A DNA stretch of 30,811 bases from Eubacteriales bacterium (lineage in GTDB: Bacteria; Bacillota; Clostridia; Oscillospirales; CAG-272), in contig JAZUGD010000018.1 in NCBI GenBank assembly GCA_045641025.1, positions 1-30,811 of the forward strand, in the 5' to 3' direction. Each line of letters starts with the position of its first letter. The stretch's first letter is position 1. Positions 3,128-17,757 of the stretch are shown one piece after another. The notes under the pieces are model-generated. The model was not told the origin of the DNA. It searched no databases and saw only the letters and a list, made by a program, of their open reading frames with translations. Both the position numbers and the translations under genes were made by a program.

Positions 3128-3168
3128 GTTTATACGTCGGCATAGATAGCCGACATACTCCACCGATA

Positions 3169-3745: not shown

Positions 3746-4147
3746 TCACGCGATAAGCATTCTGAAGCCCGAGAAGAGCAGTATTGCCGTAAAGAACGCG
3801 CGCAGCACGTCCGTGTTCAGCCTGTCCGACAGATATGCGCCGGCGATACCGGCCGCAAGTGCGGGGATAAGCATGACGGTCACCTCGTCAAGGCTCACGT
3901 TGCCCCGTGCGGCGTACGTAAGGGCTGAGACGAGCGACGTGGGCAGAATGACCGCAATAACCGATGCAAAGGCATCCTTCTCGCTTGAGGAAACGCCGTC
4001 TGCACGGCTTTTTACAAGCCGCCTGAAGGCATAGAACATAATGACTCCGCCTCCCGTGCCGATAAGACCGTTCATGAATCCCGCAAGCACGGCGGCACCG
4101 AGAAGGGCGGCAGTCCCCGCGTAACGTACGGCGGCGCCTTTTTTCAT
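3746..4147 (-). CDS. TauE/SafE (TSUP) family transporter, half-size (133 aa)
   Basis: Start MKKGAAV (ATG 4147, SD GGGAGG); AGFMNGLIGTGGG signature, PTSLVSA, GIAGAYLSDRL...LRAFF. Confidence 0.8.
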   Translation of the reverse strand: MKKGAAVRYAGTAALLGAAVLAGFMNGLIGTGGGVIMFYAFRRLVKSRADGVSSSEKDAFASVIAVILPTSLVSALTYAARGNVSLDEVTVMLIPALAAGIAGAYLSDRLNTDVLRAFFTAILLFSGFRMLIA

Positions 4148-4188
4148 AAATACCTCCCGAATCTTTTTCACTACATTATAAATAAATA

Positions 4189-4217
4189 TTGCCAAAACCC
4201 GTAAAGTGTGATAAAAT
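4189..4217 (+). promoter_or_regulatory. Sigma-A promoter for the ftsK operon
   Basis: TTGCCA (4189-4194), 17 nt, TGa-TAAAAT (4212-4217). Confidence 0.7.
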
Positions 4218-4325
4218 AGATAGGTAATACATAATGGTAAGTCTGTTTGTGCGGGACATTCCGCACCTGACTTTGAAATAATTATTCCCATGCGGAATAC
4301 AGAGATACGCAAAACGGAGGCGTCA

Positions 4326-6986
4326 ATGGCACAGAAAAAATCCGGAGGCGGAAAAAGCACAGCCGCACGCAAGGAAAAATTCAAGGTAACAAACAAAAAG
4401 AAGAAGAGCGGCGGCCGCACGGCGGGCGAGGTACGCGAAACGCGCAGAGAAAGCGCGGGCGCGCTCGTCGCACCGTATATCATCGGGCTTTTTGCGCTTC
4501 TTCTCGGTATATTCATTTACGCACAGCCTTATTCGGGAGTCGTCGGCGGCGCGATAGGCGCGTTCTTCAAGGGCGTCTTCTCGATAGGTGCGTTCTTCAT
4601 TCCGCCCGTGCTCCTCGTGCTCGCTCTCCGCGTGAGAAGCGACATTGAGGAAGGGCTCCGCGCTCTCCGCACGGTGTTCGGTATACTCATAATAATCCTT
4701 CTCTCGATGCTGCTCCATCTGTGGACGGGCGGCAAGCACGTGCTTGAGGCGGCGGTTCACTATGCGGACGGTAAGCTTCTCGTCGGCGGCGGTGTCGTCG
4801 GCGGTGTGCTCGGCGAACTGCTCTACAAGGGAATCAGAGTAGGCATGCCGATAATCGCGGTAATCGGGCTTATCGTGCTCATACCGCTTTTCGTCGGAAT
4901 ATCTCCGAGAAGCGTAGTCGCGTTCGTGACCGACAAGGCGGGCGAGGCTAAGGAAAGACGCGAAATAGAGGCTGAGGAGAACAGACTTCTCCGCGAGGAC
5001 AGACGTGCGCAGAGAGAAGCCGAGAGGGCGGAAAGATACGCCCGCGAGGCTGAGGCGCGTCCGGGCAGACAGATAGCGCTCGATGAGGAACCCGTACGTC
5101 CGAGACGAAACAGAAGCGACAAATACGTAGCCGACGTTCCGATGCCGGACGGCGACAAATACGAGGACGTGGCACCCGAGGTCGATCAGTCTCTCTTCGG
5201 ACGTGAGCCCGAAGAGGAAGAAGAGGAAGACGCACTCGACGGACGTCTTTCGGAGAAAATCGACGCATTTGACGAGAGCGACGAGGTCGTACCCGAAAAG
5301 GAGCCCGCGGTTGCGGAAAACCCGACTCCCGACCTCAAAAAGATATTTACCGAGCCCGCTGCGGGCGCCGACATAGACAAGCTCTGCGAGGATGCGGCAG
5401 GCGAGGACGCCTCCGCCGAGACGGAGTTTGAGGTTGTCAGAGAGCCCGTGCAGGAGAAAAAGCCGACTCTTAAGCCCGCACCCGAAAAACCGACGGAGCC
5501 GAAATACAAATTCCCGCCCATCGACCTTCTTATCGAGGATACCTCAAAGAAGGATCCGGGCGTCAAGGAAGAACTCAAGGAGAACGCCGCCAAACTCGTT
5601 GAAACCCTCGCAAGCTTCAACGTAAAGGCGAACGTCGTTGCAATATCCCGCGGACCTACGATTACGAGATACGAGCTCGAGCCCGAGCTCGGCACGAGAG
5701 TCCGCAACATTACGAACCTTATCGACGATATATCTCTCGCATTCGCGTCGAGCGGCGTCAGAGTCGAGCCCGTACCGGGTAAATCCGCCGTCGGCGTCGA
5801 GGTGCCGAACAAATCCTCCTCCGTCGTAAGACTGCGTACCCTCATCTCCGACAGCCGCTTCAAGAACTCTTCAAGCAAGCTTACCGTCGGTCTCGGTGAG
5901 GACGTTGCGGGCGACGCAATGTATACCGATATCGCCAAGATGCCGCATATGCTTATCGCAGGTACCACCGGCTCCGGTAAATCGGTGTGCATCAACTGCA
6001 TGCTCATAAGCCTGCTTTACAAGTCGACTCCCGACGAGGTAAAGTTCATCCTCATCGACCCCAAGAAGGTCGAATTCAACGTATACAACAGCCTGCCTCA
6101 TCTGCTCGTTCCCGTAGTCAGTGACCCCAAGAAGGCGGCGGGTGCACTCTCGTGGGCGGTATCCGAAATGGAGCGCCGCTTCGGACTTATCGAGAGAATG
6201 GGAGTGCGCGACCTCGAGCATTACAACGCGGCGGCAAAACTGCAGCCGGGATGCGAAATTCTCCCGCAGATAGTCATAGTAATAGACGAGCTTGCAGACC
6301 TCATGATGACCGCGCGCGACAGTGTCGAGGCATCCATCTGCCGTATCGCGCAGAAGGCGAGAGCCGCGGGTATGCACCTCGTAATCGGTACGCAGAGACC
6401 GTCCGTCGACGTCATCACCGGTCTTATCAAGTCGAACGTGCCGTCACGTATAGCGTTCACCGTAGTATCGCAGGTTGACTCGCGTACGGTTATCGACCGT
6501 GCGGGAGCGGAGCGCCTTATCGGACGCGGCGATATGCTTTATAACCCCGTCGGCGCACCGAAGCCCATGCGTGTGCAGGGCGCGTTCATCAGCGACGCGG
6601 AAATCGACGCGGTTGTCGAGTTCATCAAGAACAGCGGCGTGAGCGCCGGATACAGCGACGAGGTCATCGCGCAGATTGACCGCGAGGCAGAGCAGTGCGC
6701 TCCTCAGAAGAAGCGTGCGGGCGGCGACGACGATTCACCCTCCGAGGGCGGAGGAGACGAGGACGCTCTCTTTACGAAGGCGCTCGAAATCGCCGTAGAC
6801 GCGAGAAAGATATCGACCTCGCTGCTTCAGCGTAAGATGTCCGTCGGTTACGGCAGAGCGGCAAAAATCATCGACATGATGGAAAGCCGCGGATACATAT
6901 CGGCGCAGGACGGTCAGAAGCCGAGAGAGGTTCTCATTACGAGAGAACAGTTCCTCGAAATGTCCGTTCGCGGCGATGATGAATGA
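4326..6986 (+). CDS. ftsK: DNA translocase FtsK/SpoIIIE
   Basis: ATG 4326 with GGAGG SD; N-terminal TM domain, acidic linker, Walker A GTTGSGKS, IIIDELADLM-like Walker B, GTQRPSVDVITG, gamma domain STSLLQRKMSVGYGRAAKII. Confidence 0.97.
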   Translation: MAQKKSGGGKSTAARKEKFKVTNKKKKSGGRTAGEVRETRRESAGALVAPYIIGLFALLLGIFIYAQPYSGVVGGAIGAFFKGVFSIGAFFIPPVLLVLALRVRSDIEEGLRALRTVFGILIIILLSMLLHLWTGGKHVLEAAVHYADGKLLVGGGVVGGVLGELLYKGIRVGMPIIAVIGLIVLIPLFVGISPRSVVAFVTDKAGEAKERREIEAEENRLLREDRRAQREAERAERYAREAEARPGRQIALDEEPVRPRRNRSDKYVADVPMPDGDKYEDVAPEVDQSLFGREPEEEEEEDALDGRLSEKIDAFDESDEVVPEKEPAVAENPTPDLKKIFTEPAAGADIDKLCEDAAGEDASAETEFEVVREPVQEKKPTLKPAPEKPTEPKYKFPPIDLLIEDTSKKDPGVKEELKENAAKLVETLASFNVKANVVAISRGPTITRYELEPELGTRVRNITNLIDDISLAFASSGVRVEPVPGKSAVGVEVPNKSSSVVRLRTLISDSRFKNSSSKLTVGLGEDVAGDAMYTDIAKMPHMLIAGTTGSGKSVCINCMLISLLYKSTPDEVKFILIDPKKVEFNVYNSLPHLLVPVVSDPKKAAGALSWAVSEMERRFGLIERMGVRDLEHYNAAAKLQPGCEILPQIVIVIDELADLMMTARDSVEASICRIAQKARAAGMHLVIGTQRPSVDVITGLIKSNVPSRIAFTVVSQVDSRTVIDRAGAERLIGRGDMLYNPVGAPKPMRVQGAFISDAEIDAVVEFIKNSGVSAGYSDEVIAQIDREAEQCAPQKKRAGGDDDSPSEGGGDEDALFTKALEIAVDARKISTSLLQRKMSVGYGRAAKIIDMMESRGYISAQDGQKPREVLITREQFLEMSVRGDDE

Positions 6987-7002
6987 AAGGAATGAGCGTA
7001 CT

Positions 7003-7695
7003 TTGGGTAAACTTATAGCAATAGAAGGGCTCGACGGCTCGGGCAAGGAAACGCAAAGCAAGCTTCTGCTCGAGGCGCTGACGGCGTCGGGAGTGAAAGC
7101 GGTCTGCATCAGCTTCCCCGATTACGAAAGCAAATCGTCGGAGCCCGTAAAGATGTATCTGTCAGGCGAGCTCGGCACATCACCGGGTGACACGGGCGCG
7201 TACGCCGCCTCGTCGCTTTTCGCAGTCGACCGGCTCGTCGCGTTCAGAACGAAACATAAAGATATTGCCGCCCACCCCGATACGGTGATTATAGCAAACC
7301 GTTACACTACAGCGAACGCATATCATCAGCTCTCAAAGCTTCCCGAGAGCGAGTGGGACGCCTTCCTTGCGTGGCTGTGGGACTTTGAGTTCGGAAAGCT
7401 CGGACTCCCCGAGCCCGCGGGAACGGTAATGCTCTCGCTTTCTCCCGAAATTTCAGCCCGCCTTATAGAGAAGCGGTGCGAGCAAAACGGGATCGTAAAA
7501 GATATTCACGAGGCGGATATGGATTATCTCGCGTCGTGCCGCCGTGCGTCGGCTTACGTGTCCGAAAAGATGAACTGGACCGTGATAGACTGCGGTGACG
7601 GAAACGGAGAAATCCGTTCAAGAGAAGAAATTCACAAGGACGTATGCCGTGCGGCGTCGAAAGTTCTCGGTGTCACGGTATCGCCCGTAAGATAA
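7003..7695 (+). CDS. tmk: Thymidylate kinase / deoxynucleoside kinase family protein
   Basis: P-loop IAIEGLDGSGKETQ, ISFPDY, (D/N)RYTT motif, KDIHE. TTG start at 7003 preferred; ATG at 6976 or 6979 is possible. Confidence 0.88.
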   Translation: MGKLIAIEGLDGSGKETQSKLLLEALTASGVKAVCISFPDYESKSSEPVKMYLSGELGTSPGDTGAYAASSLFAVDRLVAFRTKHKDIAAHPDTVIIANRYTTANAYHQLSKLPESEWDAFLAWLWDFEFGKLGLPEPAGTVMLSLSPEISARLIEKRCEQNGIVKDIHEADMDYLASCRRASAYVSEKMNWTVIDCGDGNGEIRSREEIHKDVCRAASKVLGVTVSPVR

Positions 7696-7707
7696 AAGGA
7701 GTTTAAT

Positions 7708-8250
7708 ATGGTACTCGTATTTCTTGCAGAAGGTTTTGAAGAGATTGAGGCGCTTACCGCCGTCGATCTCCTGAGACGTGAAAAAATCGACGTCCGCCTT
7801 GTCGGAGTCGGAGCAGAAACCGTAACCGGTGCTCACGGCATCAAGGTAGTAACCGACGTGAAGGAAGAGGACGTTTCCGCTCTTCTCCCCGACGTTGAGA
7901 TGGTAGTGCTTCCCGGCGGTATGCCCGGCACTCTTAATCTCGGAGCATCCGAGACCGTTAAGAACGCCGTTTCCGCGACTGCGGAAAAGGGCGGCTTTGT
8001 CTGCGCTATCTGCGCCGCCCCCTCCGTGCTCGGAGACATGGGACTGCTCGACGGCAGAATGGCTACCTGCTTCCCGGGATATGAGGACAGACTTAAGGGC
8101 GCGCAGACCTACGATTGCGACGTTATAAGGGACGGCGAGTTCATCACCGGACGCGCCATGGGAAGTGCAACCGAGTTCGCTCTCGAACTCGTCGGCGCAC
8201 TCAAGGGCGACGATGAGGCGGAGCGTCTCCGCGAAGCCATCATCGCCTGA
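7708..8250 (+). CDS. DJ-1/PfpI family (YajL/ThiJ-like) glyoxalase/deglycase
   Basis: GFEEIEA (catalytic Glu), LPGGMPG, AICAAP (catalytic Cys), TCFPG. Confidence 0.93.
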   Translation: MVLVFLAEGFEEIEALTAVDLLRREKIDVRLVGVGAETVTGAHGIKVVTDVKEEDVSALLPDVEMVVLPGGMPGTLNLGASETVKNAVSATAEKGGFVCAICAAPSVLGDMGLLDGRMATCFPGYEDRLKGAQTYDCDVIRDGEFITGRAMGSATEFALELVGALKGDDEAERLREAIIA

Positions 8251-8252
8251 CT

Positions 8253-8873
8253 ATGGCGGGGGAAAACGTTTCCTTCACGCCTGCGGTCAACCCCGTAAAG
8301 GCGGCGAAGGACGCTATGCGGGCGGAGTATAAGGAAAAACGCCGCCTCATGGATGCGGGCGAGCGTGAACGCCGCGACGCGGTCATCTGCGGCGCAGGTG
8401 CGGCTCTTGCAAGCTTCCGCTTTGCCGATTACGTGCTTCTCTATGCCGCAACGGAAAACGAGATAAATCTCCGTGCTCTCGCCGAGAGGGCACTCTCAAA
8501 GGGTAAAAAGATTGCGTTTCCGCGCTGCCATAAGGAAAGCCACACGATGACCTATCATTTCGTGAGCTCGTACGACGAGCTGTACCCCGACAGCTACGGC
8601 ATACCCGAGCCGCCCGCGGACGCGCCCGTTTACGACGGGCAGGGTGCGGGCACGGCGATATGCTTCGTGCCGGGTATCGTGTTCGATAAACAGGGCTACA
8701 GAATAGGTTACGGCAAAGGCTTCTACGACAGATTTCTCTCGTCGTTTTGCGGCTCGTCAATCGGAGTCGTCTACGGCGATTTCATTCTCCCCTCGGTACC
8801 GAGAGGAAGATACGACGTCAGTGTTGACGTCCTTCTTACCGAAAACGGAGTTGTAAACACAAGTGAAAACTAA
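8253..8873 (+). CDS. 5-formyltetrahydrofolate cyclo-ligase
   Basis: Family signature FVPGIVFDKQGYRIGYGKGFYDRFL and C-terminal VDVLLTE. Confidence 0.95.
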   Translation: MAGENVSFTPAVNPVKAAKDAMRAEYKEKRRLMDAGERERRDAVICGAGAALASFRFADYVLLYAATENEINLRALAERALSKGKKIAFPRCHKESHTMTYHFVSSYDELYPDSYGIPEPPADAPVYDGQGAGTAICFVPGIVFDKQGYRIGYGKGFYDRFLSSFCGSSIGVVYGDFILPSVPRGRYDVSVDVLLTENGVVNTSEN

Positions 8874-9768
8874 ACCGGTAATTGCGGCACCCGCGCTTCT
8901 GCTTATCGTGTTCATACTGATGGAGGCGATAACGGTGCTTCCCGCCGACGTGTTCGGCACCGACAGCGACCCGTATATCACGGCGTCACTGCTTCAGCTT
9001 TTCATTATCGCCCTGCCTACGGTCGTGTTCGCACGTCTGCGCGGCAAGGGATATTCGGGCAGAATGCGTCTGCGCCCGTTCACGGCGCGGCACGTGGCGA
9101 TTATTATATTCGCCCTCGGATTTCTTTTCTTCGGCTCGTCGGGACTCAGCTATGTGCTTCATCTTGCGTTCCCGCAGAGCGAGGTCGTGACCACGTATGA
9201 AACGAACGGCGGAATGCTCGGCGGCTTTTACGTTATTCTCACAATGGCGGTGCTTCCCGCTATAACGGAGGAGCTTCTCTTCCGCGGCGTCATCTGTGCC
9301 GAGTACGAGTCCTGCGGTATGCCCGCGGCGATAATTCTCTCGTCACTTTCGTTCGCCATGTTCCATTTCAGCTTCGTACGTCTCCCCGTGTATCTCTTCG
9401 GCGGATTTGTGCTTGTGCTCGTTCTGTATGCAACGCGCTCCGTCTTTGCGAGCATGGTCGTACATATCCTTTATAACACCGCCACCATATTCTTCGGTGA
9501 CCTCATATACAGAGTCGTCAGCAGTCAGGGACTCGTAATGTTCGGATTTTTGCTCGTTACGCTTTCGGTAGTGTTCGCAATACTCACCTTCGGTGAGGCC
9601 GAAAGACTGTACGCAGGCTACGCCGAGAAAAACGAGCCGTCCGGCTACGTGGTCGAAAAGAAGAACGGCGGCGGCGCGGCGGGACTCGCAAAAGCGGCGT
9701 TCTCGCCTCTCTATACGGCGCTTATCGTGCTGTACATAGTTGCCGCGGCAATAAACGTGTCAAGGTAA
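8863..9768 (+). CDS. CPBP (Abi/CAAX) family intramembrane glutamic endopeptidase
   Basis: Multi-TM protein with EELLFRG, FAMFH and HILYN motifs; GTG start overlaps the upstream gene. Confidence 0.9.
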   Translation: MKTKPVIAAPALLLIVFILMEAITVLPADVFGTDSDPYITASLLQLFIIALPTVVFARLRGKGYSGRMRLRPFTARHVAIIIFALGFLFFGSSGLSYVLHLAFPQSEVVTTYETNGGMLGGFYVILTMAVLPAITEELLFRGVICAEYESCGMPAAIILSSLSFAMFHFSFVRLPVYLFGGFVLVLVLYATRSVFASMVVHILYNTATIFFGDLIYRVVSSQGLVMFGFLLVTLSVVFAILTFGEAERLYAGYAEKNEPSGYVVEKKNGGGAAGLAKAAFSPLYTALIVLYIVAAAINVSR

Positions 9769-9795
9769 CCAAGTACCCTTTGAAAGGTAATATTT

Positions 9796-11826
9796 ATGGA
9801 AAATAACAAAATCCCGGGAGACGTGCCCGAAAGACCGTCCGGGACGCGGCACGTACGAGGTACGGAGCAGGGCGACACGGTAATGATACCGGTAACAAAA
9901 CGCCCCGATTCGGCAAAGCCGGGCGTTACCCGTGTGCCGAAGCCGACTCCCGTGCCGAGACCCACTCCCGTAACCCGTCAGATGCCCGTATCGGGAAGCG
10001 GTACACAACGTCCCGTGCAGAGGGGTACGGTTCCGCGTCCGACGCCCGTATCACGTCCGGTTCCCACCGGCACCGACATGAACGCCGAAACGCGGCAGAT
10101 TCCCGTGCAGAGAAGTGCACCTCAGGTAAGCCGCCCTGCACCTCAGTCCGCAGTCAGACCGCAGACCGACGTAGGCGGTGAAACGAGACAGATTCCCGTG
10201 CAGAGAAGCGCACCGCAGGTGAGCCGCCCTGCACCTCAGTCCGCAGTCAGACCGCAGACCGACGTAGGCGGTGAAACGCGTCAGATTCCCGTGCAGAGAA
10301 GTGCACCTCAGGTAAGCCGTCCCGCACCTCAGTCTGCAGTCAGACCGCAGACCGACGTAGGCGGTGAAACGAGACAGATTCCCGTGCAGAGAAGTGCGCA
10401 GACAAGCCGTCCCGCACCTCAGCACTCTGTCAGACCGCAGACCGACGTCGGCGGTGAGACGAGACAGATACCCGTGCACAAGCCCGCTGCGTCCGATAGC
10501 GGAGAAATGTCCGCCACCCGTCCCGTCAAGCTGAAGACCGAACTCAACCCCGAGGTAACCGCGAAGGTAAATCCCGAGGCTACCGTCGTAATAAAAACGC
10601 CCGCACCCGTTGCCGTAAACGGCGGCGCCGACGACGGCGGTACGAGACCGATGCATTTGCCGAAAGCCGAGCCCGAGAAACCGAAAAAAGAAAAGGCTTC
10701 CTTCTTCTCAAGGCTTCAGACTGCGGGAAGCGAGAGCGGCGGCAACACCGTCATGAGCATAGTCAAAGCGGTGGTTTACATGGTGCTCGTGCTTCTGGTT
10801 TCCGTCGGCATATCTCTTTTCATTATCCTCGTCGGCAACGACGTTTTCGCATTTGTCAAAACGGACGAGGAGATAACCGTCACGATTCCCGAGGATGCGG
10901 GTATAGAGGACGTCGCGGATATCCTTGCCGAAAACGGAGTAATCAAGTATCCGGGCATCTTCAAGTTCTACGCGTCGTATAAGAATGACGACGGCAAGTT
11001 CCTCGCGGGAACTTATACCGTAACTCCCGCCACCGACTACGAGGACCTTCTGTACGGCTTCAAGGAGCACGAACCCGAGGGTACGTCGTGGATAACGATT
11101 CCCGAGGGCTTTACCACCGACGAGATTATAAACCTTCTCGTCGAGTCGGGCATCGGTACCAAGGAGAAATACGTTGACGTCATCAACAATTACGATTTCG
11201 ACTACTGGTTCGTTGACGAGCTTGACGCGACCGACTGGAAGAGCACGGGCCGCTTCTACCGTCTTGACGGATACCTTTTCCCCGATACGTACGAGTTCTA
11301 CAATCAGTCGTCCGAGAAGACCGTTATAAACAAGCTGCTTGCGCGCTTCAACGTCATATACGGTGACAAATATAAGGAGACCGCAACGTCCGCGGGCTTC
11401 ACCACCGACCAGGTGCTTATCATTGCCTCCATGATAGAGAAGGAGGCGGGCATGGCGGCGGACTACAACACCGTTTCCTCCGTCTTCCGCAACAGACTCG
11501 CAAGCGACTATTATCCGCGTCTCGAGAGCGACGCTACGATACTGTACGCAATCCACCACGATACGGGTACCCGCCCGAATACGTGCACGGGCGAGGACCT
11601 CAAATACGACTCTCCGTACAACTCGTACCTGAACGACGGGCTTCCTCCGGGACCCATCGCAAACCCGAGTGCGAGTGCGATAAACGCCGCGCTGACCCCG
11701 GCAGACACGAACTATTATTATTTCGTATCGTACGAGGGCAAGACCTACTTTGCCTCGACCAACGAGGAGCACGAAGCAAACAAAGCCTACGTGAACGGAC
11801 TCCGCGAGCAGTCGGCACAGCCGTAA
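9796..11826 (+). CDS. mltG: Endolytic transglycosylase MltG with a long repetitive cytoplasmic N-terminus
   Basis: Single TM near aa 320-348, then a YceG domain: TIPEGFT, LDGYLFPDTY, ASMIEKEA (catalytic Glu), SPYNSY, GLPPGPIANPS, YYYFV. Confidence 0.95.
   Translation: MENNKIPGDVPERPSGTRHVRGTEQGDTVMIPVTKRPDSAKPGVTRVPKPTPVPRPTPVTRQMPVSGSGTQRPVQRGTVPRPTPVSRPVPTGTDMNAETRQIPVQRSAPQVSRPAPQSAVRPQTDVGGETRQIPVQRSAPQVSRPAPQSAVRPQTDVGGETRQIPVQRSAPQVSRPAPQSAVRPQTDVGGETRQIPVQRSAQTSRPAPQHSVRPQTDVGGETRQIPVHKPAASDSGEMSATRPVKLKTELNPEVTAKVNPEATVVIKTPAPVAVNGGADDGGTRPMHLPKAEPEKPKKEKASFFSRLQTAGSESGGNTVMSIVKAVVYMVLVLLVSVGISLFIILVGNDVFAFVKTDEEITVTIPEDAGIEDVADILAENGVIKYPGIFKFYASYKNDDGKFLAGTYTVTPATDYEDLLYGFKEHEPEGTSWITIPEGFTTDEIINLLVESGIGTKEKYVDVINNYDFDYWFVDELDATDWKSTGRFYRLDGYLFPDTYEFYNQSSEKTVINKLLARFNVIYGDKYKETATSAGFTTDQVLIIASMIEKEAGMAADYNTVSSVFRNRLASDYYPRLESDATILYAIHHDTGTRPNTCTGEDLKYDSPYNSYLNDGLPPGPIANPSASAINAALTPADTNYYYFVSYEGKTYFASTNEEHEANKAYVNGLREQSAQP
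10087..10476 (+). repeat. In-frame tandem repeat, 93-nt unit (31 aa ETRQIPVQRSAPQVSRPAPQSAVRPQTDVGG), about 4.2 copies
   Basis: Units start at 10087, 10180, 10273, 10366 (90-nt variant) and 10456 (partial); copies differ mostly at synonymous sites. Confidence 0.97.
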
Positions 11827-11831
11827 CGAGC

Positions 11832-11859
11832 GCAGAACGCAGAGTGTAGAGTGCAGAAC
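11832..11859 (+). repeat. Degenerate heptamer tandem repeat
   Basis: GCAGAAC GCAGAGT GTAGAGT GCAGAAC, starting 5 nt after the mltG stop. Confidence 0.7.
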
Positions 11860-12001
11860 TAATGTAAAAAACCGTTCGGATTTATTTGCGACAGCCTGAT
11901 AAGGATGTTTTTCGGGATGTGGATTTTGTGCGGTAAAATCCGATGCTCGTTATGGATGTGGACAAATTAGAATTTGTAAGGCTGTCCAGGGAAGGAATAG
12001 A

Positions 12002-12328
12002 ATGACAAAAAGGAAAGGAAAAAAGCAACCAAACATACGTATTGTACTTTTAGCTTACTTTCATCGCTATGGATGGATAGCCTTGATGCTTCTTCTTATG
12101 TATATCACAAAAAGTAAGTATGCCATTGGCATAAGTTTAATCGCATTCTCAATTTGGTCATTCTTTGGGTATATATTCCGATGGAAGCATATTTATTGTT
12201 CAAACCAGAATGCCTATCATCAGCCCATGACACCGGACAAGATTCGTTGGGATACTGTCAAAAAAATAGATGCCTATGGCGTTCCTGCTATATTTATGAT
12301 TTTGGGGGTTGCATTATTATTGGTTTAG
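12002..12328 (+). CDS. Hypothetical small membrane protein (about 3 TM, 108 aa), horizontally acquired
   Basis: SD GGAAGGA upstream; basic N-terminus, hydrophobic segments near aa 13-35, 40-59 and 91-108; AT-rich codons unlike its neighbours. Confidence 0.8.
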   Translation: MTKRKGKKQPNIRIVLLAYFHRYGWIALMLLLMYITKSKYAIGISLIAFSIWSFFGYIFRWKHIYCSNQNAYHQPMTPDKIRWDTVKKIDAYGVPAIFMILGVALLLV

Positions 12329-12364
12329 ATTATATAGTGCAAATCCCGGTTTGTTGAGATGAAA

Positions 12365-12405
12365 AAATAACCCTCAGAAAAGAAACTCTTTTCTGAGGGT
12401 TATTT
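12365..12405. terminator. Bidirectional intrinsic terminator (19-bp perfect stem)
   Basis: AAATAACCCTCAGAAAAGA-AAC-TCTTTTCTGAGGGTTATTT, between the convergent orphan gene and udg. Confidence 0.85.
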
Positions 12406-12455
12406 GTTTCAAAAAACATCCTTATGGGGCTCAACCCTTCCGAACGGTTTTGTTT

Positions 12456-13022
12456 TTATTCTTCAAAAGGATTGTAATTTCCGTCGAGGTAGGCTTTTAT
12501 GTTCTTCATGTCGGTGAACATGTCTTCTTTTCTTCTCGGGTCGCGCAGGAGCGCCGCGGGGTGGAAGACCGCCGTCATGACGAAATTACCCTTCCTCACA
12601 AATTTTCCGTGCTCTTTTGTAATCTTGAAATCGGGAGAAATCAGCCTCATCGCCGATATTCTGCCGAGGCACACGATTATCTCGGGGCGGATGAGCTTCA
12701 CCTGCTCGCGCAGGTAACCGATGCACGCGTCCTGCTCCGCGGGGAGCGGGTCGCGGTTTTTCGGCGGGCGGCATTTCAGTATGTTTGCGATATATACGTC
12801 CTCACGCGGAATGTCAACGGCGCGAAGGTACGTGTCAAGCAGTTTTCCGGCGGCACCGACGAACGGTACGCCGGAGAGGTCCTCTTTTTCTCCGGGAGCC
12901 TCGCCTACGAACATAAGCCGCGCATCGGTCGAGCCGGTACCGAACACGCAGTTCGTGCGGCTTTCGCACAGCGGGCAGGCGGTGCATTCCCGGCAGGTTT
13001 TTTCAAGCTCTTCCCAGTTCAT
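12456..13022 (-). CDS. udg: Uracil-DNA glycosylase, family 4 (Fe-S type)
   Basis: CRECTACPLC Fe-S ligands, GEAPG, KCRPP, HPAA. Confidence 0.96.
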   Translation of the reverse strand: MNWEELEKTCRECTACPLCESRTNCVFGTGSTDARLMFVGEAPGEKEDLSGVPFVGAAGKLLDTYLRAVDIPREDVYIANILKCRPPKNRDPLPAEQDACIGYLREQVKLIRPEIIVCLGRISAMRLISPDFKITKEHGKFVRKGNFVMTAVFHPAALLRDPRRKEDMFTDMKNIKAYLDGNYNPFEE

Positions 13023-14641
13023 GCCTGTCCCTCCACGTGCGATGCAAGCTTGCTCTTGATACTGTCAAACGACAGACCGTATTTGTCGGCAATGTCGGAG
13101 GCGTAGCTCTTTCCGTCGGGCGTGCGGCGCACGATACGGAAGCTTCGCTGACCGTCACGTATGTCTGCCGAAAGGTTGTCTATCTTAACTCCGCCGGCGG
13201 CGGTGCATTTTTCATTGAGCTCGGGTACTGCGGCGGCAAGGTCGTGCAGGTGAGTCGAGAAGATGCCGCGGCAGCCCGCAATGCTGAAGCCCGCAAGTAC
13301 CTCCGCGGCAATGTACGAACCCTCGTACGAGCCGGTTGAGGAGAGGGACTCGTCAAGAAGCACGATGCTCTCGCACGTAACGCGGTCGAATATTTCACCC
13401 AGTCGTGCGCATTCCTCACCGAGACGGCCCTTCTCAACGGTGTCGTCGCTTCCGGTGGGGAAGTGGGTGAATATATTGTCGCACGGGCTGACCGTCGCGG
13501 CGTCGGCGCATACGGGCAGACCGAGCTGAGTCATCGCCTGAGCCTGACCCACGGCGCACGTGATGACCGATTTACCGCCTCTGTTGGGCCCCGTTATAAC
13601 GTAAATCATGCCGTCGTCGTCGAAGGCGAAATCGTTCGGTACGAGCTCACCGTCCGTCTTCAGCGCGATGAGCGGGTTTATGAGTGCTTTCGCGTCAAAG
13701 CGCTTCTCACACGCCTCCGCAACCGTCGGGAAGGTGAGGGTGCAGCCTCTCTCTTTGAGCTTTTCGCAAAGCTTCACGCCCTTGGTCACAAACTCTATCT
13801 CCGGCATCAGTCGTAGCAGAAAGTCGGTGTTTTCAAGCACGTACGCCTGAACGATGCGCTTCCACTGACGTACCGACGAGCGGAACACGTTCGCAATACC
13901 CGACGAGAACGCCTGCGACATTGCCGTCTGCTCGTTTTCCGACTGACCTTTCTTAAAGGGGGTCAGCGGAGCGATGCACGTCATGTCACCGGGCTTGAAC
14001 TCAAGACGCAGAATACGGTCGAGAAGCTCGCCCGAGCGGAACTGCTCGTTGTTTACGGCAAGCACACCGGCACTCTCGGGTTTCATTCTGCCGTCGAGAT
14101 TCACGCCTATCGTAACGCTCTTTATCTCTCTCACGCGGGATGAAAGCTCGGAGAGTCTCTCGTTCAGCTCAAGTGCGTCGGGGCTTTCCGTAAGCTCGCT
14201 TATCCTGCGTGAAAACTCCTTCATCGCACCGCTTGAGAATTTATCCGCGTGCGGCAGAATACCGTCGCGCAGAAGCTCAAGCAGGGAAAGGTAAATCTCC
14301 GCCTCCGCGACGGAATAAAGGTAACCCTCGCCGTCGGACGCGGAAAAATCGCTTCCCATTCTGCGAAGCTCCGATATGTCGTCGAGCATCGGTATCATCC
14401 GTCTGAACGTCTCGCAGATTTCGGGAGCGCCGAGCAGGTCGGAGAATACCTCCTGACGGTATCTGACCGTTTCCGCGTCACGCGTAACGAGACGCGCCAC
14501 AGCCTCCGCGTTCATGTCGAGCGCCTCGTCAAGCGAAAGCTGAACGGCGGCAGCCGCCCACAGCTTTTCCGCGGCGCCGCTCTCCTCGGACGGGGAGAAT
14601 GCCGTTTCGGGATTCGGATATAAAAGGCTGATGTCTGTCAT
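13019..14641 (-). CDS. MutS-related ATPase (domain III/V type, lacking the mismatch-binding domain)
   Basis: N-terminal TRDAETVRYRQEVF motif, Walker A ITGPNRGGKS, FTHFP, GRLGEEC, Walker B LLDESLSST, FSTHLH, HTH SYASDIADKYGL; 540 aa. Confidence 0.9.
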   Translation of the reverse strand: MTDISLLYPNPETAFSPSEESGAAEKLWAAAAVQLSLDEALDMNAEAVARLVTRDAETVRYRQEVFSDLLGAPEICETFRRMIPMLDDISELRRMGSDFSASDGEGYLYSVAEAEIYLSLLELLRDGILPHADKFSSGAMKEFSRRISELTESPDALELNERLSELSSRVREIKSVTIGVNLDGRMKPESAGVLAVNNEQFRSGELLDRILRLEFKPGDMTCIAPLTPFKKGQSENEQTAMSQAFSSGIANVFRSSVRQWKRIVQAYVLENTDFLLRLMPEIEFVTKGVKLCEKLKERGCTLTFPTVAEACEKRFDAKALINPLIALKTDGELVPNDFAFDDDGMIYVITGPNRGGKSVITCAVGQAQAMTQLGLPVCADAATVSPCDNIFTHFPTGSDDTVEKGRLGEECARLGEIFDRVTCESIVLLDESLSSTGSYEGSYIAAEVLAGFSIAGCRGIFSTHLHDLAAAVPELNEKCTAAGGVKIDNLSADIRDGQRSFRIVRRTPDGKSYASDIADKYGLSFDSIKSKLASHVEGQA

Positions 14642-14652
14642 AGGCTCACCTT

Positions 14653-15462
14653 TCAGTCTATTTTGATAATCTCCGCGCCGTCCTCCGACGGTACGGTAAG
14701 ATATTTGAAGCCAATTGATTTCAGATATTCCACGGAGTCGGCAACGTCGGCGCAGGTATCGCCCACTATGTGTGCATCCGACCCGCAGGAGACGATTTCA
14801 CCGCCGCATTCGCGGTAGAAGCGGAGCACGCCGTCGTCGGGTGAGATTCCGTATTTCTTGCGTATGCCGGAGGTGTTAAGCTCAAGCGCGAGTCCTCTTT
14901 CCTTCATTTTATCAAAGAGAACGCGGTAAAGGTCAAAATATTTGCGGGTATCGAGGCGCCGCCCGTCACGGTTTATATATCTGCACGGGTAGGTGCAGTG
15001 CGCAATAACGTGTGCGGGCTCAAACGAGGTCGTGCGTATTACGTCGTTCAGGTACCGCTCGAACAGGTTTTCGATAAACACCTGCGGCATCTCGTCGTAT
15101 TTCAGAAAGATAAAATCGGGTACGTTTTCAAGGTTATGCACCGATGCGATGACAAAGCGTACGTCATTTTCTTTAATAAACTTAATAGCCTCGGTCTCGC
15201 GCAGATGCGGCTGACCGAGCTCGATGCCGAAAACGAAGTCGAGCTTGCCCTCGTATTTTTTCTTTGCCGCCTCAAATTCGGCGCGCGCGCCTTTGACGTC
15301 GTACTCGGGGTAGAGCCCGTCAAGCATGCAGTCTATGTCGTAGTGGTCGGTGAGCGCCACGCGGGAGGCACCGTGTGCAACCGCAGTCGCGCAGATATCG
15401 TCCGCCGTCTGCTCGCCGTCAAACGAAAAATGAGTGTGGGTATGGGTATCACAGAGAATCAT
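14653..15462 (-). CDS. PHP-domain phosphatase (HisJ/HisK histidinol-phosphatase family)
   Basis: DTHTHTHFSFDG, TDH, GIELG, SVHN, ELNTSG, GSDAH metal-binding motifs. Confidence 0.9.
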   Translation of the reverse strand: MILCDTHTHTHFSFDGEQTADDICATAVAHGASRVALTDHYDIDCMLDGLYPEYDVKGARAEFEAAKKKYEGKLDFVFGIELGQPHLRETEAIKFIKENDVRFVIASVHNLENVPDFIFLKYDEMPQVFIENLFERYLNDVIRTTSFEPAHVIAHCTYPCRYINRDGRRLDTRKYFDLYRVLFDKMKERGLALELNTSGIRKKYGISPDDGVLRFYRECGGEIVSCGSDAHIVGDTCADVADSVEYLKSIGFKYLTVPSEDGAEIIKID

Positions 15463-15516
15463 AATAATTCATGCATTCCTTTCGGCACGAATATACAGCG
15501 TAAAACAAGTGGCTGT

Positions 15517-16719
15517 TTATACAATCATGCCGGCAGCCTCGTGCTTCAGCACGTCTGCGGCGGCGATGATTCCTTCAAGCGACTCTCCCGCAAGGAAGAG
15601 AGAGTAGAAACGGCTTACGTAGTCAAAGAGCACACCGTCCGAAACGCCCGAAAGGGAAGTATAGTGCTCCATTGCGCGGGGCAGAGCGGTCTCGCCCTCA
15701 CCGTCAAGCGACGCCGTGTAGGTGAAGAGCGCGGCGGCGGCACCGAGCGCGATATAAACGGGAGACGCACCCGCTTCGATAACGGAGAGAGCGGCTCCGG
15801 TAAGACGGTCGGAGGGGGCAAGCTTACGCGGGATATCCGCGCCGACTCTCGCGCAGGTATCGCCGAGCGCACGGTTTCCGAAGCGGCGGATAAGGTCTGC
15901 GGCGTGATTCATAATCGGGGCGGGGTCAAGGTTATATCTCTTAGCAAGAGCAAGCACCGATTCCGTCATTGCCTCGGTCACGATAACTCTGACCGCGGTA
16001 TCGGCGATGGACGTACATATTTTTTCGTATCCCATATAGTCGCCGAGGTATGCGCATACCGCGTGACCCATGTTGTGAAGATACAGTTTTCTTTCAATAT
16101 AATATTTGAACGGGCTGAACGGCACAATCTGCTTAACGGCAGGAGGCTCGCCCCTGAACGCGTCGCGGTCAACGGGAAGCACGCCGTATTCCTCAACCGC
16201 GATAAAGAGCGGGTCGGCGGCAAGCTTGTCCTTGTCGGGGGCGGGAACCATTCTGCCGACGGAGGTCTCAACGAGACCGACAGATGCAAGCTCGTCGGGG
16301 GTAAGCTCACCCTCGAGCATCGAGCGCACGTACTCGTCGGCGTTCATGAGGTTTTCGCATATAAGAAGGTCAAGGGGACGTCCGCTTTCCGCAAGACGGA
16401 GACGGAGTCCGCGAATGAAATTCGGCAGAATGAACTTTATCGCCTTCGCGCCCACGCAGGTCGCGGTGATGTCCGCATCCGCAATAGCGCGTGCGGCGGC
16501 GTCCGCGTCGTTGCCGTCAACGGCGTATACGTTATTTATCGTTACCTCTCTCTCGCCGTCGTTCGATACGATGCGCAGAGTATATTCGTGAGTTTTGTTT
16601 ACGGCTTCTATAAGCACCTGCGACACGTCGATAAACGTGACCTCATAGCCCGCTCCCGAGAAAAGAGGAGCGATGAATCCGCGGCCGATGTTGCCCGCGC
16701 CGAAAATTACTGCTTTCAT
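15517..16719 (-). CDS. mtlD: Mannitol-1-phosphate 5-dehydrogenase family protein
   Basis: MKAVIFGAGNIGRGFI Rossmann motif, ICENL, VGRMVP, ERKLYLHNMGH. Exact substrate is uncertain. Confidence 0.82.
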   Translation of the reverse strand: MKAVIFGAGNIGRGFIAPLFSGAGYEVTFIDVSQVLIEAVNKTHEYTLRIVSNDGEREVTINNVYAVDGNDADAAARAIADADITATCVGAKAIKFILPNFIRGLRLRLAESGRPLDLLICENLMNADEYVRSMLEGELTPDELASVGLVETSVGRMVPAPDKDKLAADPLFIAVEEYGVLPVDRDAFRGEPPAVKQIVPFSPFKYYIERKLYLHNMGHAVCAYLGDYMGYEKICTSIADTAVRVIVTEAMTESVLALAKRYNLDPAPIMNHAADLIRRFGNRALGDTCARVGADIPRKLAPSDRLTGAALSVIEAGASPVYIALGAAAALFTYTASLDGEGETALPRAMEHYTSLSGVSDGVLFDYVSRFYSLFLAGESLEGIIAAADVLKHEAAGMIV

Positions 16720-16747
16720 GGATAAGAACACTTCCTTTCAATTTATC

Positions 16748-16776
16748 ATTTTATCACAAGCGCCGCCCGCGGTCAA
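16748..16776 (-). promoter_or_regulatory. Sigma-A promoter for mtlD-PHP-mutS-like-udg
   Basis: TTGACC (16776-16771), 17 nt, TGa-TAAAAT (16753-16748). Confidence 0.75.
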
Positions 16777-16797
16777 CATATAATATGAAAGAAGTAC

Positions 16798-16826
16798 TTG
16801 AAAGTGACACCGTTTGCGTGTATAAT
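16798..16826 (+). promoter_or_regulatory. Sigma-A promoter for the GNAT gene
   Basis: TTGAAA (16798-16803), 17 nt, TATAAT (16821-16826). Confidence 0.8.
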
Positions 16827-16858
16827 ACGAAATGAACGAAAAAGAGAGGAGGGCGCGT

Positions 16859-17449
16859 ATGCTGACCCGTGACGAAATAACCCATACCTTCAGGGATACA
16901 CCGGTGCTTGAAACCGACAGACTGATTCTCCGCCGTATGGATAAACGCGATGCGGACGATATGTTCGACTACGCTCACCGCGAGGAAACCACGCGCTATC
17001 TCACGTGGGAGCCTCATCCCACCCGCAAGTTTTCGTATCAGTATCTCGTTTATCTGCAGACGAAATACCGCTCGGGCGAATTCTTCGACTGGGCAGTCGA
17101 GCTTCGTGAGACCGGAAAGATGATAGGTACGTGCGGCTTTACCCGTTTTGATTTTGCAAACGACTCCGCCGAGGTCGGCTATGTCATAAACCCCGACTAC
17201 AAGGGTAACGGATACGCAACCGAGGCGCTTCGCCGCGTTATCCGCTTCGGGTTCGACTATCTCGAGCTGCATCGCATTGAGGCGCACTATATGGAGGAAA
17301 ACGCCGCAAGCCGCCGCGTCATGGAGAAATGCGGCATGACCTTTGAGGGTGCCCACCGCGACAGTCTCGCCGTCAAGAGGCGTTACGAGACCGTCGGTAT
17401 CTGCGCAATACTCCGCTCCGACTACAATACGGACCGCATAAGCGGCTGA
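16859..17449 (+). CDS. GNAT family N-acetyltransferase (RimJ/RimL-like)
   Basis: LETDRLILR, MIGTCG, AEVGYVI...YKGNGYATEA, NAASRRVMEKCGM. ATG 16859 has a GGAGG SD; ATG 16832 is an alternative start. Confidence 0.92.
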   Translation: MLTRDEITHTFRDTPVLETDRLILRRMDKRDADDMFDYAHREETTRYLTWEPHPTRKFSYQYLVYLQTKYRSGEFFDWAVELRETGKMIGTCGFTRFDFANDSAEVGYVINPDYKGNGYATEALRRVIRFGFDYLELHRIEAHYMEENAASRRVMEKCGMTFEGAHRDSLAVKRRYETVGICAILRSDYNTDRISG

Positions 17450-17635
17450 AAAGTGAATGATTTTCCGCGAAGGGATTCTTTTTTGCCTTCGCGCAAATAT
17501 TTTTATATGCGGGCTTTCGTATATATATACCTGCAGATTAACCGATACCGCCCGATATCGGCATAATTATACCGTATTTGCCGAAAATGCGAAAAAACGG
17601 ATGAATCCGTCACTCCCTGCGGGTGTCATTTGCCA

Positions 17636-17664
17636 TTGACAAAACGGATGCATGGTGATATAAT
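17636..17664 (+). promoter_or_regulatory. Consensus sigma-A promoter of the opp operon
   Basis: TTGACA (17636-17641), 17 nt, TGa-TATAAT (17659-17664). Confidence 0.88.
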
Positions 17665-17757
17665 ATCGAATAACTATAATGTGTGGATTATCGGTATTTA
17701 TGCCGTTTTCAGGCATTTTCGATACCCAAAGCAATTTAAAGTGAGGCATTTTCATTT

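What the first reader, a model, noticed from the sequence alone, without database searches (positions are those of the whole stretch)
9796..10755. MltG cytoplasmic tail is a repeat array of T-x-x-(I/V/M) motifs: candidate multisite phospho-Thr/FHA scaffold
Seen: about 320 aa before the TM helix are Pro/Arg/Thr-rich and low-complexity, with a 31-aa tandem repeat (about 4.2 copies). The recurring element is Thr plus a hydrophobic residue at +3: TRHV, TVMI, TRQM, TRQI x5, TRPV, TAKV, TVVI, TRPM. It occurs inside and outside the exact repeats. Established: FHA domains read pThr with selectivity at +3 (often I/L/V); PASTA Ser/Thr kinases regulate envelope synthesis in Bacillota; streptococcal MltG also has a large cytoplasmic domain. 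Inference: glycan-chain termination here may be tuned by multivalent Thr phosphorylation, with valency set by repeat copy number.
Basis: partly seen in the sequence, partly recalled or inferred. Interest (0 to 1): 0.7.

Follow-up and report, generated by a model that had tools for sequence, protein, structure and literature searches.

The report
Conserved threonine-motif array in MltG tail
A cell-wall-cutting enzyme (MltG) of an uncultured gut Clostridia bacterium has a long floppy tail inside the cell with six copies of a short conserved threonine motif, which is most likely a multi-site target of the cell-wall stress kinase, a lineage-specific elaboration of a control route recently shown in enterococci.

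Summary
A 93-bp x 4.2 tandem repeat lies at 10087-10478.

It is T-[RK]-x-[IVM]-P, here ETRQIPVQR, not loose T-x-x-hydrophobic, which is not enriched in homologous tails.

- Units 1-3 encode identical peptides but differ at 8 nucleotide sites, all synonymous.
- Same-genus orthologues have repeat units of 22-32 aa with unrelated spacers, yet all keep the core.
- All nine array-bearing tails hold 5-7 copies.
- Thr at position 0 is about 7-fold preferred over Ser.
- The motif matches the M. tuberculosis Hanks-kinase consensus T-x-(x/V)-hydrophobic-(P/R)-I.

The genome has a canonical PrpC-PrkC (three PASTA domains) locus. PASTA kinases phosphorylate MltG tails in E. faecalis and streptococci.

The FHA part is weak. 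Arrays persist in three genomes where no FHA was found. The single FHA protein here sits in a separate kinase/phosphatase cassette that has its own TTVL motifs.

Verdict: probable multi-site PrkC phospho-acceptor array (about 0.5), with a phosphorylation-independent docking array as the main rival. It is a new variant of a known kind. Nothing was tested biochemically, and copy number was not independently confirmed.

The parts
9796..11826 (+). mltG ORF, 676 aa: disordered cytoplasmic tail, one TM helix, LysM-like and YceG lytic transglycosylase domains
   Evidence: YceG E 6.4e-78; AF2; Lmo1499 4IIW, E 1.3e-47. An AAAGG Shine-Dalgarno-like site lies 9 nt upstream of the ATG. The M-[DE]-N-N N-terminus is shared with orthologues.
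9796..10743 (+). Cytoplasmic tail, residues 1-316: Pro/Val/Arg/Thr/Gln-rich, net +19, predicted disordered
   Evidence: pLDDT below 50 and no secondary structure for residues 1-315; composition and charge
10087..10478 (+). Tandem array, 93 bp x 4.2 (31-aa unit ETRQIPVQRSAPQVSRPAPQSAVRPQTDVGG)
   Evidence: TRF; units 1-3 encode identical peptides, and all 8 variable nucleotide sites are synonymous.
9973..9987 (+). Motif copy 0, T60 (TRQMP), upstream of the array
10090..10104 (+). Motif copy 1, T99 (TRQIP)
10183..10197 (+). Motif copy 2, T130 (TRQIP)
10276..10290 (+). Motif copy 3, T161 (TRQIP)
10369..10383 (+). Motif copy 4, T192 (TRQIP)
10459..10473 (+). Motif copy 5, T222 (TRQIP)
10642..10656 (+). 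Membrane-proximal G-G-T-R-P-M element (T283), about 35-45 aa before the TM helix. Orthologues have a G-T-[RK]-x-[MVI] element at a similar position.
10744..10848 (+). Transmembrane helix, residues 317-351, preceded by a Lys-rich stretch (N-terminus inside the cell)
10879..11784 (+). Extracytoplasmic YceG catalytic region, residues 362-663. E550 in the IEKEA motif is invariant.

Best explanation
Proposal. The cytoplasmic tail of this MltG is an intrinsically disordered, basic segment. It displays six copies (five spaced 30-31 residues apart, plus one upstream) of a short linear motif, [acidic or small]-T-[RK]-Q-[IM]-P-V-Q-[RK]. A related G-G-T-R-P-M element lies near the membrane. I propose that the threonines are phospho-acceptor sites of the genome's PASTA kinase PrkC (contig C83), reversed by the adjacent PP2C phosphatase PrpC.

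How it would work. Each 31-aa unit has net charge +2, so one phosphate per unit would roughly cancel it. Multi-site phosphorylation would change the tail's charge and its contacts with partners or the membrane. That would shift the localisation, the partnerships or the activity of the extracellular glycan-strand-terminating domain. The proposal is a repeat-amplified version of the PASTA kinase to MltG route shown in Enterococcus faecalis.

Shown: the array, its conservation and selection, the Thr specificity, the presence of the kinase and phosphatase, and the predicted topology and disorder.

Inferred: phosphorylation itself, the identity of the kinase, and the downstream effect.
For: 1. Selection on the peptide. 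Units 1-3 differ at 8 nucleotide sites, all synonymous. In 20 units from 5 species, T0, Q+2 and P+4 never change, and +1 and +3 change only R/K and I/M.

2. Motif kept while spacers diverge. Same-genus orthologues L010, L011 and L012 have 32-, 29- and 22-aa units with unrelated spacers. P0002-P0005, P0016 and P0050 show further versions.

3. Enrichment. T[RK]x[IVLMF]P occurs 62 times in 25 of 141 tails of 50%-identity representatives, against about 4 in shuffles (maximum 11). Thr at position 0 is about 7-fold over Ser, Ala and the other residues after normalising for composition. The motif remains enriched without the array proteins (22 against 3.4; the Ser version 10 against 4.7).

4. Fit to a kinase consensus not used to define the motif. 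The M. tuberculosis STPK motif is X-acidic(4)-T-X-(X/V)-hydrophobic-(P/R)-I (review PMC6888350). With one vote per protein, I/V is enriched at +5 (8 of 25, p 0.001), V at +2 (8 of 25) and acidic residues at -5 to -1 (20-32% against 10%). G at -2 (GET, GAT, GGT) fits the only enriched pThr motif in C. difficile, GXT (PMC9674922).

5. Writer and eraser are present. There is a canonical RlmN-PP2C-PrkC(3 PASTA)-RsgA locus. A PASTA-type kinase of about 620 aa (610-635 aa) is found in the array-bearing genomes G002, G004, G006 and G007. In G006 it is the only Hanks kinase found. In G041 the kinase frame is split.

6. Precedent.
- E. faecalis MltG's disordered cytoplasmic segment is phosphorylated directly by IreK at T20, and this changes ceftriaxone resistance (PMC12369325).
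- S. mutans MltG has three PknB-dependent pThr sites (PMC12625713).
- S. pneumoniae MltG T155 is a putative StkP site.

7. In this genome the array is unique to MltG.
Against: - There are no phosphorylation data for this organism or any relative.
- PASTA kinases of Bacillota have no agreed substrate consensus. Studies of S. aureus and C. difficile found none beyond GXT. The fit is therefore to an actinobacterial motif.
- A motif with five constrained positions (T, R/K, Q/V, I/V/M, P) is as typical of a docking motif as of a kinase site.
- The kinase is near-universal in the group, so co-occurrence cannot discriminate.
- The enterococcal and streptococcal sites are not alignable with this tail.
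- Most sister lineages (57-65% catalytic identity) have long tails, often repetitive, without this motif. The motif is therefore not needed for MltG function in general.
- The motif pattern was defined after seeing the data, and related sequences are not independent.
Confidence: 0.5

Rival explanations
1. Phosphorylation-independent docking array. T-[RK]-Q-I-P-V-Q-[RK] is a short linear motif bound as such by a cytoplasmic partner. Candidates are the Jag domain of KhpB/EloR, DivIVA, or an elongasome or divisome component. Six copies would give multivalent recruitment or clustering of MltG.
For: - The motif is strict at five positions, which is typical of peptide-domain docking.
- In S. pneumoniae the Jag domain of EloR binds the cytoplasmic part of MltG (bioRxiv 10.1101/2020.12.18.423453).
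- In S. suis DivIVA interacts with MltG (cited in PMC12625713).
- KhpB (C53, 357 aa) and a DivIVA homologue (C167) are encoded in this genome.
- A copy number held at 5-7 fits avidity.
Against: - The strong preference for Thr over Ser or Ala at position 0, and the fit to a kinase consensus at +2, +3, +4 and +5, are not predicted by a generic docking motif.
- The pneumococcal Jag contact needs the DUF1346 domain, and Pfam does not detect that domain in this tail.
- No partner was identified.
Confidence: 0.28
2. One reading: the phosphorylated array is a multivalent scaffold read by FHA domains (pThr with a hydrophobic residue at +3).
For: - The T-x-x-I geometry fits the known +3 preference of FHA domains (established knowledge).
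- Thr, not Ser, is selected, and FHA domains bind pThr only.
- This genome encodes one FHA protein, DUF6382 plus FHA.
Against: - No FHA (PF00498) or FHA-like (PF16697) domain was found in G006 (90% complete, six copies). PF00498 found none in G007 (72% complete) or G041 (six copies).
- FHA was found in only 5 of 24 other genomes of the same family.
- The one FHA protein of G000 sits in an accessory cassette (WG/TPR protein, DUF5702, PP2C, non-PASTA kinase, giant surface protein). That cassette has its own [EA]TTVL motifs on the FHA protein and on a neighbouring membrane protein. This is the kind of cassette described beside T7SS and Tad loci (PMC11217815).
- FHA recognition would not explain the constraint on R/K at +1 and P at +4.
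Confidence: 0.1
3. No specific function. The tail is a neutral low-complexity spacer or entropic bristle. The motif is kept only because tandem units are homogenised by recombination, or the array is an assembly artefact.
For: - Tails of this clade are generally repetitive and evolve fast. L040 has about 25 units of a 10-aa repeat, and L039 and L043 carry other repeats.
- The array could not be spanned by independent contigs.
Against: - Homogenisation cannot explain conservation of the core between species whose spacers and periods differ.
- It cannot explain purely synonymous divergence between units, nor separate occurrences of arrays on the catalytic-domain tree.
- The units carry distinguishing SNPs, and contigs of related strains enter the array from both sides with 95-99% identity.
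- Orthologues from other assemblies carry equivalent arrays.
Confidence: 0.07

Closest known systems
Enterococcus faecalis MltG - IreK (PASTA kinase) pathway (Knotek & Kristich 2025, PMC12369325)
   Same: Both are MltG/YceG proteins with an extended, intrinsically disordered N-terminal cytoplasmic segment. In E. faecalis a PASTA kinase directly phosphorylates Thr in that segment. The same architecture and a PASTA kinase plus PP2C pair exist here.
   Different: E. faecalis has one functional site (T20) and three minor sites, with no repeat and no defined motif. Here there are six copies of a conserved T-[RK]-Q-I-P motif in a tandem array. The tails are not alignable, and phosphorylation is untested here.
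Streptococcal MltG/MpgA cytoplasmic domain (S. mutans pT102/166/191, PMC12625713; S. pneumoniae T155 and EloR/KhpB Jag binding, bioRxiv 10.1101/2020.12.18.423453)
   Same: The MltG cytoplasmic part undergoes multi-site, PASTA-kinase-dependent Thr phosphorylation. The tail serves as a contact point for cytoplasmic regulators.
   Different: The streptococcal tail contains a DUF1346 domain that mediates Jag binding. No such domain is detected here. The streptococcal tail also has no tandem motif array.
Mycobacterium tuberculosis Hanks-kinase substrate consensus X-acidic(4)-T-X-(X/V)-hydrophobic-(P/R)-I (Prisic et al. 2010, as quoted in PMC6888350)
   Same: Both have Thr at 0, V allowed at +2, a large hydrophobic residue at +3, Pro at +4, I/V at +5 and an acidic tendency upstream.
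   Different: That consensus comes from a different phylum. It does not require R/K at +1, which is invariant here. It describes sites in many unrelated proteins, not an array in one protein.
Thr-x-x-Leu motif tails read by FHA domains in T7SS/Tad-associated kinase-phosphatase cassettes of Bacillota (Garrett, Higginson & Palmer 2024, PMC11217815)
   Same: Both are disordered cytoplasmic tails of membrane proteins with repeated Thr-centred motifs, in genomes that encode Hanks kinases and PP2C phosphatases. Such a cassette is present in this genome on contig C238.
   Different: Those motifs ([EA]TTVL here) sit on proteins encoded inside the cassette, next to the FHA gene. The MltG array is at a housekeeping locus, has a different motif, and occurs in genomes where no FHA was found.
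Listeria monocytogenes Lmo1499 (PDB 4IIW) and E. coli MltG (2R1F, 8YQ7)
   Same: The extracytoplasmic LysM-like and YceG region is homologous (E 1.3e-47 over residues 357-662), with the IEKEA catalytic-Glu motif conserved.
   Different: The solved proteins lack a long cytoplasmic tail.

Membership tests
MltG / YceG endolytic murein transglycosylase | YceG domain | tested here: met
   Pfam PF02618 E 6.4e-78, residues 362-663, profile positions 1-273 of 275. PDB 4IIW E 1.3e-47.
MltG / YceG endolytic murein transglycosylase | Single N-terminal membrane anchor with the catalytic domain outside the cell | tested here: met
   The hydrophobic maximum is at 326-348. AF2 gives a helix at 317-351, followed by a confident fold (pLDDT above 90). 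A Lys-rich stretch precedes the helix.
MltG / YceG endolytic murein transglycosylase | Catalytic glutamate | tested here: met
   E550 is invariant in 37 homologues and aligns with the IEKEA motif of Lmo1499. Its equivalence to E. coli E218 rests on my own knowledge.
PASTA-kinase substrate of the E. faecalis MltG type | Extended disordered cytoplasmic segment bearing Thr | tested here: met
   Residues 1-315 have pLDDT below 50 and no secondary structure. The tail contains 31 Thr.
PASTA-kinase substrate of the E. faecalis MltG type | Cognate PASTA kinase and PP2C phosphatase in the genome | tested here: met
   Contig C83 encodes a 628-aa Pkinase with 3 PASTA domains next to a PP2C gene and RsgA.
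PASTA-kinase substrate of the E. faecalis MltG type | Thr actually phosphorylated in a kinase-dependent way | not testable with these tools
   No proteomic data exist, and no RNA or protein runs were listed for this organism.
PASTA-kinase substrate of the E. faecalis MltG type | Site homologous to E. faecalis T20 or S. pneumoniae T155 | not tested
   The enterococcal and streptococcal sequences were not fetched. The papers state that the sites are not conserved between those species.
FHA-domain ligand (pThr-x-x-I/L/V) | Thr with a hydrophobic residue at +3, with Thr not replaceable by Ser | tested here: met
   I, M or V occupies +3 in all copies. Thr is about 7-fold over Ser at position 0.
FHA-domain ligand (pThr-x-x-I/L/V) | An FHA protein co-occurs with the ligand | tested here: not met
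   FHA is present in G000, G001, G002 and G004. None was found in the array-bearing G006 (90% complete), G007 (72% complete) or G041. These genomes are incomplete, so absence is not proven.
FHA-domain ligand (pThr-x-x-I/L/V) | Physical binding of the phosphopeptide to the FHA domain | not testable with these tools
   Phosphorylated residues cannot be modelled. The unphosphorylated complex job gave no verdict.
Hanks-kinase consensus T-X-(X/V)-hydrophobic-(P/R)-I with acidic residues upstream | Residue preferences at +2, +3, +4 and +5, and at -1 to -5 | tested here: met
   With one vote per protein (25 proteins): I/V/M/L/F at +3 and P at +4 (both by definition of the search pattern). V at +2 in 8 of 25, I/V at +5 in 8 of 25 (p 0.001), and D/E at -5 in 8 of 25 (p 0.002). 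R/K at +1 is not part of the published consensus.

The most novel reading that the evidence does not exclude
The array is a multi-site phospho-counting device. About six equivalent PrkC sites, held at a valency of 5-7 across species despite complete turnover of the spacers, would convert graded wall-stress kinase activity into a thresholded or stepwise change in MltG engagement with the peptidoglycan synthases, and hence in glycan strand length. T-[RK]-x-hydrophobic-P would then be the first clear substrate consensus for a PASTA kinase in Bacillota.
Probability: 0.2. Interest if true: 0.7.

Novelty: new variant of a known kind. Interest (0 to 1): 0.5.

Why it matters
How PASTA kinases change cell-wall synthesis is only partly known. 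MltG was validated as a direct substrate only in 2025, and the consequence of its phosphorylation is still unexplained.

A natural lineage has amplified one short Thr motif to about six conserved copies in the MltG tail. This gives a defined peptide (ETRQIPVQR) to test as a PASTA-kinase consensus. It also gives a clean multi-site system for asking whether phosphorylation acts by charge, by partner release or by recruitment, and a motif with which to search for other substrates.

The FHA result also matters. Thr-x-x-hydrophobic arrays are not automatically FHA docks, because here the array persists in genomes where no FHA domain is found.

Tried and rejected
1. Complex prediction of the FHA domain (C238 protein, residues 440-545) with MltG residues 95-200 gave no verdict (score 0.00, controls not run). 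It is reported only here and is not evidence either way.

2. Read support. The look-up of sequencing runs listed no RNA holder. Only Logan contigs from mouse-gut and other gut metagenomes were available, 95-99% alike. These contigs break inside the repeat and none spans it. Copy number is therefore neither confirmed nor refuted. One low-depth contig of run X3 has an in-frame 3-nt insertion in unit 4.

3. The search for homologous proteins with the tail alone (residues 1-330) gave only 3 hits besides the query. The wider survey used the full-length representative search instead.

4. The GpsB-binding motif (S/T)-R-x-x-R-(R/K), recalled from memory, was considered and rejected. The second Arg position is Pro in T-R-Q-I-P.

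5. I searched for the motif in other proteins of the genome as a possible shared regulon signal. TRQIP outside MltG occurs only inside the folded Obg GTPase and in a short spurious frame. No other frame has two or more copies apart from off-frame noise.

6. The PrkC juxtamembrane region and the second kinase carry no comparable motif.

7. The conserved upstream CPBP/Rce1-like protease was considered as a motif reader or processor. Its synteny is independent of the motif, so it is not specific to the array.

8. The second MltG paralogue (C201) has an acidic tail without the motif.
Full report
**What is there**

The window comes from a 2.13-Mb, 319-contig genome bin (95.6% complete) of an uncultured Clostridia bacterium. 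Its nearest public relatives are labelled Candidatus Avispirillum, Oscillospiraceae or Eubacteriales MAGs from animal guts. Near-identical contigs occur in mouse-gut metagenomes.

ORF 9796-11826 (+) encodes 676 aa. Its organisation is as follows.
- Pfam finds one domain, YceG, at residues 362-663 (E 6.4e-78).
- The closest solved structure is Listeria Lmo1499 (4IIW, E 1.3e-47), with the IEKEA catalytic motif conserved.
- An AlphaFold2 model built on 37 homologues gives pLDDT below 50 and no secondary structure for residues 1-315. It gives one long helix at 317-351 and a confident fold (pLDDT above 90) for the rest.
- The tail is followed by a Lys-rich stretch and a single TM helix, and the catalytic domain must face the wall. 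The 316-325-residue tail is therefore cytoplasmic.
- The tail is rich in P, V, R, T and Q, has almost no aromatic residues, and has net charge +19.

TRF reports a 93-bp unit x 4.2 copies at 10087-10478.

Against composition-preserving shuffles the loose motif is enriched in the whole tail (12 against 5.1, p 0.0014). Outside the array it is barely enriched (7 against 3.75, p 0.057). T-[RK]-x-[IVM] is enriched even outside the array (4 against 0.57, p 0.0016).

**The repeat is under selection and is unlikely to be an assembly artefact**

Units 1-3 encode the same 31 residues but differ at 8 nucleotide positions, and all 8 are synonymous. The copies are therefore old enough to have diverged, are held constant at the protein level, and are distinguishable to an assembler.

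Independent contigs from related strains enter the array from both sides but none spans it. The exact copy number therefore remains unconfirmed.

**The conserved element is narrower than T-x-x-hydrophobic**

Same-genus orthologues carry arrays whose units differ in length and spacer sequence but keep the same core.
- L010: 32 aa, DTRQIPVQRN...
- L011: 29 aa, ETRQIPVQRQ...
- L012: 22 aa, ATRQIPTANA...

An exhaustive HMMER search gave 150 representatives at 50% identity. Further versions appear among them.
- P0002: SETKQIPVQRP, five tandem copies plus two TRQIP copies upstream
- P0003: SQTRQIPVQKQ, 5 copies
- P0005: NATRTVPAP
- P0016/L054: GATRQ[IM]P, 6 copies, 19-aa period
- P0050: ARTRV[IM]PTVQQ

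In 20 units from five species, T0, Q+2 and P+4 never vary. Positions +1 and +3 vary only R/K and I/M, and all other substitutions lie in the spacers.

Across 141 tails, T[RK]x[IVLMF]P occurs 62 times in 25 proteins, against about 4 expected (shuffle maximum 11). Thr at position 0 is about 7-fold over-represented relative to Ser, Ala or any other residue.

After removing the seven array proteins, the specific motif is still enriched (22 against 3.4). Loose T..[IVLM] is not (223 against 208).

**Distribution**

On a tree of the TM plus extracytoplasmic part, with tails excluded, the window protein and P0002-P0005 form a well-supported clade (99). All members of that clade have 5-7 copies.

P0016 (6 copies) and P0050 (3 copies) sit elsewhere among array-less lineages. 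At least two or three gains or losses are therefore needed. Single or double copies are scattered through the family.

Most sister lineages at 57-65% catalytic identity have long tails without the motif. These often carry other tandem repeats, and a membrane-proximal G-A-T-R-[VIL]-T-D-[IVM] element.

All nine array-bearing tails have 5-7 copies although the period ranges from 17 to 32 residues. Valency looks conserved, not variable.

In this genome the array is unique to MltG. A second MltG paralogue has an acidic tail without the motif.

**Who could read or write it**

The genome has a canonical RlmN-PP2C-PrkC-RsgA locus, with a 628-aa kinase carrying three PASTA domains.

It also has one FHA protein (DUF6382 plus FHA). 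That protein lies in a separate cassette with a WG-repeat/TPR protein, DUF5702, a second PP2C, a non-PASTA kinase, a small membrane protein and a giant surface protein. The FHA protein and the small membrane protein carry their own repeated [EA]TTVL motifs. This is the sort of self-contained cassette described beside T7SS and Tad loci (PMC11217815). Earlier notes of this scan describe similar cassettes.

Among array-bearing genomes, a PASTA-type kinase is found in G002, G004, G006 and G007; in G041 the kinase frame is split. No FHA-type domain was found in G006 (90% complete), G007 (72% complete) or G041. In G006 the PASTA kinase is the only Hanks kinase found. If the motif is phosphorylated, the PASTA kinase is the writer, and an FHA reader is not required to maintain the array.

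**Fit to kinase specificity**

The only broad bacterial Hanks-kinase consensus I could verify is that of M. tuberculosis: X-acidic(4)-T-X-(X/V)-hydrophobic-(P/R)-I (PMC6888350).

My search pattern fixed T, R/K at +1, a hydrophobic residue at +3 and P at +4. The remaining positions were free, and they match the consensus. With one vote per protein, V at +2 is found in 8 of 25, I/V at +5 in 8 of 25 (p 0.001), and acidic residues at -5 to -1 at 20-32% against a 10% background.

G at -2 (GET, GAT, GGT) fits the GXT motif, the only pThr motif enriched in the C. difficile phosphoproteome (PMC9674922).

As a caveat, studies in S. aureus and C. difficile found no strong kinase motif, and R/K at +1 is not part of the published consensus.

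**Precedent**
- E. faecalis MltG has a disordered cytoplasmic segment that IreK phosphorylates directly at T20. Phospho-ablative and phospho-mimetic alleles shift ceftriaxone resistance in opposite directions, and the mechanism is unknown (PMC12369325).
- S. mutans MltG has three PknB-dependent pThr sites (PMC12625713).
- S. pneumoniae MltG T155 is a putative StkP site, and its cytoplasmic DUF1346 domain binds the Jag domain of EloR/KhpB.

Kinase control of MltG through its tail is therefore known. What is new here is a conserved, amplified motif.

**Verdict**

The best-supported reading is a multi-site PrkC phospho-acceptor array (about 0.5). Each 31-aa unit has net charge +2, so one phosphate per unit would roughly neutralise it. 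That suggests a charge- or partner-based switch, but this step is inference.

The rivals are as follows.
- A phosphorylation-independent multivalent docking motif (about 0.28) is the main rival. KhpB and DivIVA are present as candidate partners.
- The FHA-scaffold model is possible in this genome but is not general (about 0.1).
- Neutral repeat or artefact is unlikely (about 0.07).

The complex prediction gave no verdict. Copy number awaits long reads.

Noticed in passing
window 8253-9768 (+), and 59 of 76 related loci (L010-L085): A 5-formyltetrahydrofolate cyclo-ligase gene and a CPBP/Rce1-like intramembrane protease gene lie directly upstream of mltG. The protease gene ends 28 nt before the mltG start. 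Each of the two genes was found in 59 of the 76 related loci (largely the same loci), whether or not the tail carries the motif. A functional link between the CPBP protease and MltG is possible and has not been examined.
   Followed up: partly
G000:C201:71-1585 (L104): A second MltG/YceG paralogue (504 aa or more, 44% identical in the catalytic part) has an acidic Asp/Glu-rich cytoplasmic tail and no T[RK]xhydrophobic-P motif. The genome therefore has one basic-tailed and one acidic-tailed MltG.
   Followed up: partly
G000:C238 (L102) 2309-18834: An accessory phospho-threonine cassette. It holds a WG-repeat/TPR protein, a BspA-type LRR protein, a DUF5702 protein, DUF6382-FHA (with GETTVL x 2 just before the FHA domain), PP2C, a non-PASTA Hanks kinase, a small membrane protein with ETTVL/ATTVL x 3, and a surface protein of more than 1469 aa with InlB B-repeats.
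   Followed up: partly
L040, L039, L043 (MltG tails of related MAGs): Sister-lineage MltG tails carry quite different tandem repeats. Examples are about 25 copies of a 10-aa A-Q-R-T-A-A-Q-P-Q-S unit, 9 copies of a 15-aa P-A-A-K-P-T-A-Q-P-V-Q-K-S-A-A unit, and 8 copies of a 14-aa P-A-R-P-P-Q-R-P-A-A-P-N-G-A unit. Several also share a membrane-proximal G-A-T-R-[VIL]-T-D-[IVM] element.
   Followed up: partly
G000:C53:166-1239 (L105, minus strand): KhpB/Jag (357 aa, next to YidC) has a linker made of repeated P-K-A-E-K-K-E-A-A-P-A-P-K units and an RGG-like C-terminal stretch.
   Followed up: no
G000:C83 (L103) 6602-8488, minus strand: After its three PASTA domains, PrkC ends in an extracellular Thr/Glu/Lys-rich low-complexity tail (about residues 545-628, with repeated T-E-K-T-T-K-A and T-E-T-E stretches).
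   Followed up: no
window 10396: One low-depth (2x) contig of a related strain in a mouse-gut metagenome (run X3) has an in-frame 3-nt insertion (CAC) in repeat unit 4. This would be a possible strain-level indel in the array.
   Followed up: no
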